Positions 1 to 2,956 of a DNA stretch of 2,956 nucleotides are shown here, piece after piece. The DNA lies in the NCBI GenBank assembly GCA_000004985.1, contig GG739240.1. One strand, written 5' to 3'. The notes beneath the pieces are model-generated. The model saw only the letters and a program-made list of their open reading frames with translations, made no database searches and was not told the origin of the DNA. This DNA comes from Naegleria gruberi (taxonomy: Eukaryota). The position numbers and the translations under genes are program-made. Position 1 is the first letter of the stretch; every line of letters starts with the position of its first letter.

Positions 1-760
1 TTTCTTCTTCTTCTGATTCAGATTTTTTACTTGATTTTCTAGTTGATTTTTTTCTGGCTACTCTTGACGGTGGTTCTTCTTCTTCAGATTCGGAATTAGA
101 TTGTTGTTCTTGTTCAAGTACATGTTCTTCTTCTTCTGTTTTTTTCTTTTTAGATGATCTTGTTTCATATTTTCTACCTTCATTCTTGGAGGAGGTATCA
201 ACAGAATTGCTTTTGGAATTTTTTTTGGTTGGTTGTTCATTTAATTTAATAATTCTTGTTTTAAATGTTTTTACACTCTTATCATTCTCGTCAACCAATT
301 CCAACCACTCGTGATCAAGATCAGTGGTTTTACTGAAATCCATTTCTAAAATTCCACACACCTTAAATGACTTTTTTAATTTTTTAATTCCTAAAATGTA
401 AAATAATGATGAAATGTTGGATTTTTTAAATCGTACAACAGATTCACTGATTAGTTGGTTTCCAGTATTCTTGATAGTAATGCTTTTAAAGAGATCAGTT
501 GGTTTTCCCTTAATATTTACAGGGTCCCCTAATTTGTAATAGGTTTCAAAGGAGTTCTCATCTTCTGAATTTTGCTTGTTAGTTGTTTGCTCCGGAATTT
601 TAGATGAATCGGGTGTCGATTCATGAACATCAATTGTTGATTCAGAAGTACTAGTGGACGATGGTAAATTATTGTTGGATTTTGATGATGAAATATTATC
701 TCCAACAACATTTTCTTGTATTTCGTTACTTGTTGATTGTGATGATTCACTTGAAGACAT
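1..760 (-). CDS. Protein-coding gene, N-terminus complete (ATG at 760-758), C-terminus beyond the window start. Ser/Asn/Thr-rich acidic N-terminus, a roughly 110-aa non-repetitive core (…YYKLGDPVNIKGKPTDLFKSITIKNTGNQLISESVVRFKKSNISSLFYILGIKKLKKSFKVCGILEMDFSKTTDLDHEWLELVDEND…), then a Lys/Glu-rich charged tail (…KKKKTEEEEHVLEQEQQSNSESEEEEPPSRVARKKSTRKSSKKSESEEEE…). Function unknown.
   Basis: Hand translation of the reverse complement from 760 gives an uninterrupted reading frame of 253 codons to position 1: MSSSESSQSTSNEIQENVVGDNISSSKSNNNLPSSTSTSESTIDVHESTPDSSKIPEQTTNKQNSEDENSFETYYKLGDPVNIK… An in-frame TGA lies 9 nt upstream of the ATG (complement of 770-772), so this is the first ATG of the frame. 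The start context is A-rich (AAAAAAATGTC), as in yeast. Codon use is AT-rich yeast-like with no CTG codons. The ORF track omitted it, presumably because it has no stop inside the window. Confidence 0.75.
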   Translation of the reverse strand, partial: MSSSESSQSTSNEIQENVVGDNISSSKSNNNLPSSTSTSESTIDVHESTPDSSKIPEQTTNKQNSEDENSFETYYKLGDPVNIKGKPTDLFKSITIKNTGNQLISESVVRFKKSNISSLFYILGIKKLKKSFKVCGILEMDFSKTTDLDHEWLELVDENDKSVKTFKTRIIKLNEQPTKKNSKSNSVDTSSKNEGRKYETRSSKKKKTEEEEHVLEQEQQSNSESEEEEPPSRVARKKSTRKSSKKSESEEEE

Positions 761-930
761 TTTTTTTAGTCAATTTTAATGCCTTATTAAATAAACATCT
801 TTGAAAATTAAATTGTATTCGGAATTTAATGATGAATCATTTTTCACAAAAATTGCATTACTTTTCGGCTGAAAATATTTACCAAATAATTGTCCAATTG
901 TTTTTGGTTTTAAATTATATGTTTTTAGGT
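761..930 (-). promoter_or_regulatory. Probable 5' UTR and proximal promoter of the minus-strand gene. The segment is AT-rich and lies between the ATG and the first repeat copy.
   Basis: Position only: it sits immediately upstream, in the gene's orientation, of ATG 760-758 and contains no ORF. I could not pin down a clear TATAAA. Confidence 0.3.
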
Positions 931-1135
931 TTTGGATCCCATGTCAACCCCTATTTATTAAGCTTTTCTCCTTAAATACATTAACAATATATATCACAAA
1001 TGATGTCAAAAGATGGTGATGGTAATGGGGCACAATATACGGCTGATGTGAAATTGTTAAATATTTATATATATCAAGTTATGATGGTGGCTAGTGGCAA
1101 TAAAATCACTTGATCAAAATTATTTTTGCCGGTTG
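931..1135 (+). repeat. Direct repeat, copy 1 (about 205 bp). It starts TTTGGATCCCATGTCAACCCC… and contains TATATATA at 1067-1074, which is LTR-U3-like if the repeat is an LTR.
   Basis: Base-by-base alignment to 2753-2956 at a constant offset of 1822. There are only two substitutions in the first ~188 bp (1017 g vs t; 1098 c vs t). The last ~17 bp are more divergent (one substitution, one 1-nt T-run indel, then breakdown), which suggests the homology ends near 1135. Confidence 0.9.
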
Positions 1136-1156
1136 ATCAAACCGAAAAACGCGCGG
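1109..1156. promoter_or_regulatory. Cluster of palindromic and CpG motifs at the distal edge of repeat copy 1: TTGATCAA twice (1110-1117 and 1133-1140), GCCGG (1128-1132), CGG-N9-CCG (1130-1144) and ACGCGCGG (1149-1156).
   Basis: The sequence is cacTTGATCAAAattatttttGCCGGTTGATCAAACCGaaaaACGCGCGGaaaag. There are five CpGs in about 30 bp, against roughly one CpG per 80-100 bp elsewhere in the window. The cluster is about 370-400 bp upstream of the minus-strand gene's ATG. Confidence 0.2.
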
Positions 1157-1231
1157 AAAAGTTAAAAATAGATTCAAGTTGATGTGAAAATGGCTCAGAA
1201 TCGAAAGGATTAACAAAGCTTACTACTATAT

Positions 1232-1265: not shown

Positions 1266-2095
1266 TCAACTTTATCATAGAAATCACTCTTGAAACATGA
1301 ATTGTACTATAATGTGTGAGTAACATACTGTTGTTGGAATTGATCAATAACTCTATGAAATGACTGAGATGGAACGTAAACCTTCTTCTAAGGTAAGTTA
1401 GTGGAATTTAAGATACTGAGCCATGAATGTGAAACTTTCTCAGATTGTTCTCCTCATCTAGGGAAGTGTATTCATATTTGATACTTGTATGATATTTTGA
1501 AAAATGAATGAGATGGAGTATATTCTATATGTTGAAATATGACAATTTGACAGATTGTTATTATTATCATATTGAATTCGATTCTAAAACACTAAAAATG
1601 ATACCAGTTGTATATCAGTGTGACTAAACGTACATGGTAAAGTTACACGATAATAGGATGTACTTTCATTGAGATAGAGTGTACACTTGGATATAATCAC
1701 TCTTGACATTGAACATTTACTGATTGACTGAATGTAAGTTTCATGAATTGTTTCAATACGTATATGGATGTATATAAATGATGTATATAATGTGTGTTAT
1801 CAATTCTAGACTAATTTCATATAAAATAAGTGAGTTGGAGCATAATCTTTGATTTTATGTCAAAGTTCTATAGTAAAATGATAGAGTTGACAACTCAATA
1901 TCTACTGAACCAATATTAATGAAATTGATATCATATGCTAATTAGAGTGTCTACATATCATGGTATTAATTTCAGTGAAAATGGAGTTGTTTCTGGTCCC
2001 TTCAGATTTCCATCCATTCTCCTTGACAATCACCATGTACTATCCACTGGATGCATTTCTTGAAATGAAAATATATAATTTGATGAAAGTTCACT

Positions 2096-2116
2096 TTATT
2101 TGAGATGTAGAACACG
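2096..2116 (+). repeat. 21-bp near-identical direct repeat, member A: TTATTTGAGATGTAGAACACG.
   Basis: It matches 2398-2418 (TTATTTGAGATGTTGAACATG) at 19 of 21 positions. The spacing is 302 bp, about two array periods. Confidence 0.7.
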
Positions 2117-2397
2117 ATATTATCATTTATTTTGAGATTAGTAATTTTTCCTATAGTATCATCCTTAATTGTCTTAATTGACCTAAAGAGGTAAAGGAGA
2201 GATTTCAAAACATAAAATAAATGATATTTACGAGATGTACTATTGATTTCCAACCGATTGATATGTATTTTGTAGATTGAGGATGAAGTTCTGAAGAGTT
2301 CCTCCTTAACTTACCAAGTCAACCCTGATATTTCACCCTTTACCTTAGTGAATGATGGAATGTTCACTAAAACGTCTAAAAACTGAATCATATACAT

Positions 2398-2418
2398 TAT
2401 TTGAGATGTTGAACATGG
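2398..2418 (+). repeat. 21-bp near-identical direct repeat, member B. It is followed by ACATGGTGGTAAAGTTGCA (2413-2431), which also matches ACATGGTAAAGTTACA at 1632-1647.
   Basis: Direct alignment with 2096-2116, and with 1632-1647 (a 3-nt GGT indel and one substitution). Confidence 0.7.
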
Positions 2419-2752
2419 TGGTAAAGTTGCATAGAGTGGTCATTTTCCAGATTTTCATCCATGTCCACAGTTGACTAGATGGCATGTTAGAGTTGAAATC
2501 GTGAATATAAAAGTGAAAATAAACTTAATATTCTATCTATACTCATCGAATGGAGCATTTTCATATATAATTTATTGATTGAAGTGATGTATTTGGGTTT
2601 GGATATTAATCTGCGCTCTTAAACATCATTATTTATAAGACTTCATATACATCAATATATATCATTAGATAGGAAATGTTCACGCCTACATGTTGATATA
2701 TAATTTTAATATTGGTTGCTATCAAATAATGGAGATAATCAACTCGTTTGGG

Positions 2753-2956
2753 TTTGGATCCCATGTCAACCCCTATTTATTAAGCTTTTCTCCTTAAATA
2801 CATTAACAATATATATCACAAATGATGTCAAAAGATGGTGATTGTAATGGGGCACAATATACGGCTGATGTGAAATTGTTAAATATTTATATATATCAAG
2901 TTATGATGGTGGCTAGTGGTAATAAAATCACTTGATCAAAAGTATTTTGCCGGTGT
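2753..2956 (+). repeat. Direct repeat, copy 2. It is cut by the window end, so its true 3' boundary is unknown.
   Basis: About 98% identity with 931-1135. The flanks upstream of the two copies do not match each other (the ten bases upstream of each copy, 921-930 vs 2743-2752, are only about 50% similar). Confidence 0.9.

What the first reader, a model, noticed from the sequence alone, without database searches (positions are those of the whole stretch)
1365..2737. Strand-polar, degenerate tandem array with a ~150-bp period (TGAGATGGAG anchor) filling the interior
Ten anchor occurrences on the + strand only, spaced 125-181 bp apart with a mean of about 151. Secondary conserved blocks (cAGATTGTT…CTCATC, TAGAGTK, ACATGGTAAAGTT) recur between units. 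Exact TGAGATG occurs four times against about 0.1 expected, and TGGAG five times against about 0.7 expected. This looks like an old, heavily diverged satellite family of about nucleosome length whose roughly 12-unit block was later re-duplicated as the 1822-bp period, i.e. a higher-order repeat. Related GATGG motifs also sit inside the 205-bp repeat (1012, 1018, 1082, 1190), which suggests the bounding repeat is itself made of the same units. Satellite and higher-order-repeat organisation is not typical of ordinary yeast intergenic DNA.
Basis: seen in the sequence. Interest (0 to 1): 0.6.

Follow-up and report, generated by a model that had tools for sequence, protein, structure and literature searches.

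The report
Decayed local duplications in Naegleria spacer
The supposed 150-bp satellite is a noncoding spacer in the amoeba Naegleria gruberi (not a yeast) that holds a few very old, mostly eroded local direct duplications sharing one short motif, which is ordinary and shows no sign of satellite or higher-order-repeat organisation.

Summary
The window is Naegleria gruberi nuclear DNA, not yeast. The minus-strand ORF 760..1 is 99% identical to the predicted protein NAEGRDRAFT_68595.

Within 1 mismatch there are 5 copies against 0.2 expected. The other four anchors (1977, 2231, 2546, 2725) cannot be told from background.

What the six sites share is a motif of about 30 nt, not a 150-bp unit. Tandem Repeats Finder finds no such array. 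Units cut at the anchors barely align.

The real homology is three old direct duplications at roughly 60-70% identity:
- 1346-1489 with 1490-1650, lag about 144
- 1466-1793 with 1794-2092, lag about 320
- 2093-2289 with 2394-2590, lag 301

The two halves of each ~300-bp unit are unrelated. If each pair is reduced to one member, the anchor enrichment is no longer significant (p about 0.15).

The 209-bp bounding repeat (97% identical, 1822 bp apart) is real. It is unrelated to the interior units, and its second copy runs into the window end, so a higher-order repeat cannot be shown.

There is no coding, RNA, LTR or structural signal. The most likely reading is a neutral relic of local tandem duplications. 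Interest is low.

The parts
1..760 (-). 5' 253 codons of a protein-coding gene. It is an allele or strain variant of N. gruberi NAEGRDRAFT_68595 (XP_002676208.1, UniProt D2VI82). The start codon is at 760-758 and the ORF runs off the left end of the window.
   Evidence: Translation. It is 99% identical over 100% of the query to P0001, named N. gruberi by NCBI and UniRef. No Pfam family matches.
925..1133 (+). Copy 1 of the 209-bp direct repeat that bounds the interior.
   Evidence: the repeat finder family D1, 925-1126, 98% identical. blastn aligns 925-1133 with 2747-2954 over 209 columns at 97.1%, E = 2e-78, lag 1822. It has no similarity to the interior units.
2747..2954 (+). Copy 2 of the 209-bp direct repeat. 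It ends 2 nt before the window end, so its true 3' limit is unknown.
1365..1374 (+). Anchor site 1, TGAGATGGAA. Flank subtype AAATGAnTGAGATGGA.
1509..1518 (+). Anchor site 2, TGAGATGGAG (exact match).
1670..1679 (+). Anchor site 3, TGAGATAGAG.
1831..1840 (+). Anchor site 4, TGAGTTGGAG.
   Evidence: The block 1501-1526 aligns with 1823-1848 at 81%.
2101..2110 (+). Anchor site 5, TGAGATGTAG. Flank subtype AYWTTATTTGAGATGTWGAACA.
   Evidence: the repeat finder family D9.
2402..2411 (+). Anchor site 6, TGAGATGTTG (2 mismatches).
   Evidence: the repeat finder family D9: 20 of 22 nt identical to 2093-2114.
1346..1650 (+). Oldest visible pair of units of about 144 bp (1346-1489 and 1490-1650). The homologous blocks are 1358-1373 with 1502-1517, and 1426-1473 with 1536-1584, offset by a 34-bp indel.
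   Evidence: Gapped Smith-Waterman score 17 against shuffles at 9.1 +/- 1.4, z = 5.5, 0 of 300 shuffles, with the anchor excluded. The repeat finder families D3 and D4.
1466..2092 (+). Pair of units of about 320 bp (1466-1793 and 1794-2092).
   Evidence: nhmmer with 1466-1793 as query hits 1822-2064 at E = 0.005. The block 1702-1750 against 2022-2067 gives z = 5.0 to 6.7.
2093..2700 (+). Pair of units of about 301 bp (2093-2393 and 2394-2700). They align over 2093-2289 and 2394-2590 at about 61% identity.
   Evidence: blastn E = 1.3e-6. Smith-Waterman score 28 against 12.4 +/- 1.8, z = 8.6. nhmmer E = 0.006.
2107..2240 (.). Imperfect 134-bp palindrome inside one ~300-bp unit, with 49-nt arms that are 71% complementary.
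   Evidence: the repeat finder pair I1. blastn self-hit on the minus strand, E = 3.5e-9. nhmmer E = 0.004. The DNA fold z-score is only -1.7.

Best explanation
Positions 1134-2746 are noncoding spacer upstream of a Naegleria gruberi gene. This spacer has undergone several rounds of local head-to-tail duplication, by replication slippage or unequal exchange, at different times. The oldest products are a pair of about 144 bp and two pairs of about 300-320 bp. They have drifted to about 60-70% identity with indels. What survives across all of them is a block of about 30 nt centred on TGAGATGGAG. Each duplication copied that block along with its unit, so the block recurs in one orientation at about 150 or about 300 bp. 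The youngest event produced the 209-bp block seen at 925 and 2747 (97% identical). Shown: the three pairwise homologies, the six motif copies, and the absence of coding or RNA signal. Inferred: common descent of all six motif copies, the duplication mechanism, and the lack of function.
For: - Three pairwise homologies, all direct: z = 8.6, z = 5-6.7 and z = 5.5 against dinucleotide shuffles, with nhmmer E = 0.005 and 0.006.
- The anchor falls in the best-preserved block of each pair.
- Conservation among the six sites is confined to about -15/+19 nt.
- Keeping one member of each pair leaves 3 anchor copies against 0.055 expected, and 15% of shuffles have an equally extreme best 10-mer. The striking 5-against-0.2 statistic is therefore largely non-independence caused by duplication (compared).
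- No homolog for any six-frame ORF segment of 780-2956 among 5.8 billion proteins at E <= 10.
- No Pfam family reaching its curated cut-off; one sub-threshold match, called chance. No Rfam family except one chance-level hit at E = 0.51 in the gene region. No tRNA.
- No fold signal for five of the seven segments tested; two reach only z = -1.7 and -2.2.
- The direct-word excess in the interior is no larger than in the neighbouring coding DNA.
- N. gruberi is reported to have only about 5% repeat content (PMC9928731, Table 1). That fits an isolated local event better than a satellite domain.
Against: - The core 10-mer is far better preserved (0.81 mean pairwise identity) than the rest of units that are otherwise barely alignable or not alignable at all. 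The same block is the best-kept piece of three separate pairs. By my own estimate that coincidence has p of about 0.02-0.04, which hints at constraint or gene conversion rather than pure drift.
- The six sites fit one 148-bp lattice (p about 0.03) even though the demonstrable duplication units differ in size.
- Homology between the two ~300-bp pairs, and of site 1670 to anything, is not demonstrable beyond the motif.
- No genomic context beyond 2956 bp could be obtained.
Confidence: 0.6

Rival explanations
1. The ~30-nt motif is a functional cis-element, for example phased binding sites for a sequence-specific DNA-binding protein or a repeated promoter or processing signal. Selection keeps it intact while the duplicated DNA around it decays.
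For: - The core is at 0.81 identity against flanks at 0.25-0.33.
- All six sites are on one strand with none on the other.
- The spacing is lattice-like.
- The motif is the best-kept block in three independent pairs.
Against: - After collapsing the duplicates, the motif enrichment is not significant (p about 0.15).
- No seventh site or weaker sites appear above background.
- No RNA family match in the interior. Fold signal is absent or weak: the best segment reaches z = -2.2.
- No known element with this sequence could be named.
- Binding-site clusters are usually irregular in spacing and mixed in orientation (general knowledge).
Confidence: 0.15
2. One reading: a genuine satellite of about 150-bp monomers organised as a 12-mer higher-order repeat of 1822 bp, of which the window shows just over one unit.
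For: - A 97% identical block recurs at exactly one 1822-bp period and runs to the window end.
- 1822/148 is about 12.3, and the anchors fit a 148-bp lattice.
- Two interleaved ~300-bp series (1365/1670 and 1509/1831/2101/2402) would suit a dimeric substructure.
Against: - Tandem Repeats Finder finds no array.
- Adjacent 150-bp halves of the ~300-bp units are unrelated (z about 0).
- Four of the ten anchors are background.
- The bounding repeat is unrelated to the interior units.
- Mismatches between the two 209-bp copies pile up in the last 30 nt, as at a repeat boundary.
- The locus abuts an ordinary single-copy gene.
Confidence: 0.1
3. A non-autonomous LTR-type retroelement (LARD- or TRIM-like). 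The two 209-bp blocks would be LTRs and 1134-2746 a noncoding internal region with internal repeats.
For: Two direct repeats of about 200 bp at 97% identity flank a 1.6-kb interior that has no ORF.
Against: - The repeat starts TT(A/T)GG... and its last shared bases are ...GCCGGT, so it lacks TG...CA termini.
- No TGG-initiated tRNA-complementary primer-binding site follows 1133.
- The 15 nt before 2747 are not a polypurine tract.
- No gag or pol remnant in any frame.
- A 22-mer from the repeat has no match in metagenome contigs, and an 18-mer has none in viral contigs.
- The target-site duplication cannot be tested because the 3' end lies off the window.
Confidence: 0.08
4. Nothing repeated at all: the pattern is produced by AT-rich composition and post-hoc choice of anchor.
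For: - In shuffles, some 10-mer reaches 5 or more approximate copies 11% of the time.
- The left half of the interior has no excess of direct words.
- The collapsed test gives p about 0.15.
Against: - The composition-adjusted post-hoc test beats 100 of 100 shuffles.
- Three gapped alignments with z from 5 to 8.6 show real homology independent of the anchor.
Confidence: 0.05

Closest known systems
Decayed local tandem duplications or minisatellite relics in eukaryotic intergenic DNA
   Same: Head-to-tail copies in one orientation. The duplication layers differ in age (about 60% up to 97% identity) and in unit size. There is no coding or RNA signal, and the locus lies in a spacer next to an ordinary gene.
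   Different: One short block is much better preserved than the rest of the units. Copy number is very low, with two copies per layer.
Satellite DNA with higher-order repeats (for example primate alpha satellite: 171-bp monomers, multi-monomer units homogenised to more than 95%)
   Same: An apparent period of about 150 bp. A much younger repeat sits at a period about 12 times longer. The orientation is strand-consistent.
   Different: Monomers here do not align with one another. No array is detectable by Tandem Repeats Finder. Only 209 bp of a second long-period copy is visible, and that block is unrelated to the interior units. No evidence of a genome-wide family could be obtained.
Non-autonomous LTR retroelements (LARD / TRIM)
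   Same: Two direct terminal repeats of about 200 bp enclose a noncoding interior.
   Different: No TG...CA termini, no primer-binding site and no polypurine tract. The target-site duplication cannot be tested.

Membership tests
Satellite DNA / tandem array of ~150-bp monomers | Head-to-tail units that align with one another over their whole length | tested here: not met
   Tandem Repeats Finder finds no array. Units compared without the anchor score 11.3 against 10.3 for shuffles and 10.7 for the reverse-complement control. The halves of the ~300-bp units give z about 0. Identity falls to background beyond -15/+19 nt of the anchor.
Satellite DNA / tandem array of ~150-bp monomers | Regular period | tested here: inconclusive
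   The six strong sites give R = 0.93 at 148 bp, p about 0.03. The demonstrable duplication lags are 110-144, about 320 and 301.
Satellite DNA / tandem array of ~150-bp monomers | Many copies, long arrays or a genome-wide family | not testable with these tools
Higher-order repeat | Multi-monomer units repeated in tandem, much more similar to each other than the monomers within a unit are | tested here: inconclusive
   Only 209 bp recurs at lag 1822 before the window ends. Mismatches cluster at its 3' end.
Higher-order repeat | The repeated block is itself built of the same monomers | tested here: not met
   The 209-bp repeat against every interior segment gives z from -1.6 to +1.6. The weight matrix finds no site in the repeat above background.
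LTR retroelement (LARD / TRIM) | LTRs with TG...CA termini | tested here: not met
   The sequence at 925-933 / 2747-2755 and at 1128-1133 / 2949-2954 lacks them.
LTR retroelement (LARD / TRIM) | tRNA-complementary primer-binding site after the 5' LTR and a polypurine tract before the 3' LTR | tested here: not met
   1134-1160 reads TGATCAAACCGAAAAACGCGCGGAAAA, with no TGG start. 2730-2746 reads TGGAGATAATCAACTCG. This was read by eye. No Naegleria tRNA set was available.
LTR retroelement (LARD / TRIM) | Target-site duplication flanking the element | not testable with these tools
   The 3' end of copy 2 lies at or beyond the window end.
Clustered small-RNA genes (snoRNA, tRNA, 5S, SL RNA) | Match to an RNA family or a stable conserved fold in each unit | tested here: not met
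   Rfam at E <= 1 gives only a chance hit inside the gene. ARAGORN finds no tRNA. Fold z-scores range from -2.2 to +0.6.
Repeat-domain protein gene or pseudogene | An open frame or detectable protein homology | tested here: not met
   The longest ORF listed in the interior is 83 aa, and the longest stop-free stretch is 102 codons. No homolog at E <= 10. No Pfam family reaching its curated cut-off; one sub-threshold match.

The most novel reading that the evidence does not exclude
The ~30-nt strand-specific motif (core TGAGATGGAG) is a selected cis-element in Naegleria. It would act as a phased array of protein-binding or transcript-initiation/processing sites spaced about one nucleosome repeat apart, maintained while the surrounding duplicated DNA decays freely. 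It may be one instance of a genome-wide class.
Probability: 0.1. Interest if true: 0.5.

Novelty: new member of a known kind. Interest (0 to 1): 0.12.

Why it matters
It matters little. It adds one example of eroded local tandem duplication in a compact protist genome. It also shows how a few old duplications can inflate the apparent enrichment of a motif and mimic a periodic satellite. The locus would become interesting only if the short motif proved to be conserved or widespread in Naegleria, because almost nothing is known about cis-regulatory or chromatin-organising sequences in Heterolobosea.

Tried and rejected
- Getting more of the genome. The look-up of encoding contigs with P0001 and four window ORFs found nothing on record. 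Metagenome scans with a 22-mer from the repeat and with the flanking protein were empty. Viral contig scans were empty.
- Coding potential. All six-frame stop-free segments of at least 22 aa from 780-2956, joined into one query, gave no hit at E <= 10. Pfam on the longest segments gave nothing beyond chance. The 102-codon stop-free stretch on the minus strand (2005-2310) looked slightly like leucine-rich repeats by eye, but nothing supported that.
- snoRNA cluster. I looked for C/D boxes by eye and ran Rfam. Rejected.
- Anchor as a start codon or first exon. The three copies 1359, 1503 and 1825 read M-(T/N/S)-E-(M/L)-E in frame, and copy 1 runs into AAG|GTAAGT. The other copies hit stops within 12 codons, and no downstream exon could be built. 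I left this as a note.
- MITE or hairpin units. The palindromes at 1798-1883, 1890-1990 and 2107-2240 have weak E-values, and their fold z-scores are -0.6, -2.2 and -1.7.
- Literature on Naegleria repeats, satellites and telomeres. Nothing specific to this locus or motif turned up.
- The flanking protein. Its only remote hit is a bacterial DUF7507/DUF11 repeat protein, with the score inflated by 14 identical repeats. It has no bearing on the finding.

Full report
**Identity of the window.** The minus strand carries an open frame from the ATG at 760-758 to the left edge of the window (253 codons). It is 99% identical over its full length to a 273-aa Naegleria gruberi predicted protein (P0001 = XP_002676208.1 / EFC43464.1 / NAEGRDRAFT_68595 / UniProt D2VI82). 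That protein is a singleton whose gene lies on a 461,873-bp scaffold. The window is therefore N. gruberi nuclear DNA, either another allele or another strain, and not yeast. Everything from 761 to 2956 is unannotated AT-rich spacer. GC is 0.25-0.365, no lower than in the gene.

**What is mechanically repeated.** The repeat finder and blastn confirm one strong direct repeat, 925-1133 against 2747-2954: 209 columns, 97.1% identical, lag 1822. Copy 2 stops 2 nt before the window ends. There are only 2 mismatches in 934-1120, then 2 mismatches and an indel in the last ~13 nt. This is either a true repeat boundary or poor sequence at a contig end. Tandem Repeats Finder at the lowest score threshold reports only five tiny arrays with periods of 8-12, one listed twice because it lies inside both copies of the 209-bp repeat.

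**The anchor.**
- TGAGATGGAG with at most 1 mismatch occurs 5 times, all on the + strand (1365, 1509, 1670, 1831, 2101). The expectation is 0.20, and 0 of 200 shuffles reach 5. A sixth copy with 2 mismatches is at 2402.
- The anchor was chosen after looking at the sequence, so I compared the best composition-adjusted 10-mer of the interior with the best one in shuffles. The observed P is 7e-8. The shuffle minimum is 1.4e-6, and 0 of 100 shuffles beat the observed value.
- A raw count test is not impressive: 11% of shuffles contain some (AT-rich) 10-mer with 5 or more approximate copies.
Matches at that level are at background, 31 against 22.5 +/- 4.1 with the six strong sites included.
- A weight matrix built from the six sites finds nothing else above the best minus-strand scores.

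So six sites are real, not ten.

**Period.** The six sites fit a lattice of 148 bp: Rayleigh R = 0.93, p about 0.03 after scanning periods 80-400. The ten-site version gives a smaller p, but its weak members were picked to fit the lattice. The word-match lag spectrum peaks at about 300, 450, 620 and 780 rather than at 150.

**Are there units?**
- Cutting at the anchors and comparing the units without the anchor gives a mean local alignment score of 11.3. Shuffles give 10.3 +/- 0.27 and the reverse-complement control 10.7. The best pair is not significant.
- Column-wise identity among the six sites is 0.81 in the core and 0.43-0.45 out to about -15/+19 nt. Beyond that it is at background, 0.25-0.33. 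The shared object is a motif of about 30 nt.

Gapped comparisons of larger segments do reveal real but very old homology, always direct:
- 2093-2289 with 2394-2590: lag 301, about 61% identity, blastn E = 1.3e-6, Smith-Waterman z = 8.6, nhmmer E = 0.006.
- 1466-1793 with 1794-2092: lag about 320, nhmmer E = 0.005. The block 1702-1750 with 2022-2067 gives z = 5-6.7.
- 1346-1489 with 1490-1650: anchor lag 144, plus the block 1426-1473 with 1536-1584, z = 5.5 with the anchor excluded.

In contrast:
- The two halves of each ~300-bp unit are unrelated (z from -0.7 to 0.5).
- The two ~300-bp pairs are unrelated to each other apart from the anchor.
- The 209-bp bounding repeat is unrelated to all of them.

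**Non-independence.** The anchor sits in the best-preserved block of each pair, so the six sites are not independent draws. I kept one member of each pair, which leaves an 863-nt collapsed sequence. That leaves 3 anchor copies against 0.055 expected. TGAGATGGAG is still the top 10-mer, but 15% of shuffles have an equally extreme best word. Most of the headline enrichment therefore comes from three duplications, not from an array. The same motif being the best-kept block in three separate pairs is a residual coincidence. I estimate p of about 0.02-0.04 from word-sharing probabilities. That figure is inference, not a tool result. It leaves room for common descent from one ancestral unit, or for some constraint on the motif.

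**Background level of repetition.** The interior's excess of direct 7- and 8-mers (z about 4) is matched by the coding region 1-760 (z = 3.7-4.8). The excess is absent from the left half, 1134-1940 (z = 0.5-1.3), which holds four of the anchors. It comes from the right half. Short 12-14-nt matches are as frequent in inverted as in direct orientation.

**What it is not.**
- No tRNA.
- No Rfam family; the only hit at E <= 1 is a chance match inside the gene.
- No stable fold in five of the seven segments tested. Two palindromic segments reach only z = -1.7 and -2.2.
- No listed ORF above 83 aa and no stop-free stretch above 102 codons in the interior.
- No protein homolog for any six-frame segment at E <= 10 among 5.8 billion sequences. 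This also means no N. gruberi gene model overlaps the region with an exon of about 22 aa or more.
- No Pfam family reaching its curated cut-off; one sub-threshold match, called chance.
- LTR hallmarks are missing: no TG...CA termini, no TGG-initiated primer-binding site after 1133, and no polypurine tract before 2747 (read). The target-site duplication cannot be tested.

**Best explanation.** Local head-to-tail duplications occurred repeatedly in a noncoding spacer, at different times and with different unit lengths. Almost all of them have eroded. The youngest is the 209-bp block at an 1822-bp distance. The periodic, strand-polar anchor is the surviving common piece of these copies. My confidence is about 0.6. 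The main rival is that the motif is under selection as a cis-element (about 0.15). Neither can be excluded because the sequence right of 2956 and the genome-wide copy number could not be obtained.

**Comparison with known systems.** The locus behaves like an ordinary minisatellite or segmental-duplication relic. It resembles alpha-satellite-type higher-order repeats only in the numerical coincidence of 148 x 12 being about 1822. It fails the defining test of alignable monomers. N. gruberi is reported to have about 5% repeats and 57.8% coding sequence (PMC9928731). Most of its repeats are unclassified (PMC12344493). I found no literature on this motif or locus.

**Verdict.** The satellite, higher-order-repeat and yeast claims are unsupported. 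Interest is low.

Noticed in passing
window 1146-1160: AAACGCGCGGAAAA (minus strand TTTTCCGCGCGTTT) is the only CpG-dense spot in the AT-rich spacer. From memory it resembles an E2F-type TTTSSCGC site. It lies about 390 bp upstream of the minus-strand gene's ATG and about 200 bp upstream of a possible + strand mini-exon.
   Followed up: no
window 1359-1397: ATGACTGAGATGGAACGTAAACCTTCTTCTAAG is followed by GTAAGT, an 11-codon ORF that contains anchor 1 and runs into a canonical 5' splice site. Anchors 2 and 4 read the same M/I-(N/S)-E-(M/L)-E in frame but soon hit stops. This could be the first exon of an unannotated + strand gene, with the other copies as dead duplicates.
   Followed up: partly
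window 2107-2240: A 134-bp imperfect palindrome with 49-nt arms (71% complementary, 36-nt spacer) sits inside one ~300-bp unit and is bracketed by GAGATGTAG and GAGATGTAC. nhmmer gives E = 0.004, but the DNA fold z-score is only -1.7.
   Followed up: partly
window 2592-2604 and 2747-2759: An exact 13-nt TTTGGGTTTGGAT occurs 155 bp upstream of the second 209-bp copy, and the second occurrence forms that copy's first 13 nt. It may be microhomology involved in the duplication, or chance (I expect about 0.1-0.3 such matches).
   Followed up: no
window 1121-1133 vs 2941-2954: Differences between the two 209-bp copies cluster in the last ~13-30 nt, right at the window end. This would fit a real repeat boundary or low-quality sequence at a contig end. 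The odd window length (2956) and the gene cut off at the left edge suggest the window may be a whole short contig.
   Followed up: no
window 2005-2310 (minus strand): A 102-codon stop-free stretch in 30% GC DNA, where I expect roughly 0.05 of this length by chance. It has no homolog and no Pfam match, and it overlaps the palindrome.
   Followed up: yes
window 1-760 (minus strand), protein residues 34-124: The flanking Naegleria protein has no relatives except itself. One weak, repeat-inflated match links it to the start of bacterial DUF7507/DUF11 repeats through an ITIKNTGN-type strand motif (E = 2.8e-16 over 14 identical repeats, but only 28.9 bits per repeat). This may indicate an Ig-like beta-sandwich domain or may be spurious. 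The window's protein also differs from the reference protein at 2 visible residues (M/T and S/P).
   Followed up: partly
window 2-161: The TTCTTCTTCTTC-rich direct repeats (family D2, and 2-152 against 125-273 at 64%) are the antisense of the Glu/Lys/Ser-rich low-complexity C-terminal part of the gene. They are coding low complexity, not a DNA repeat element.
   Followed up: no
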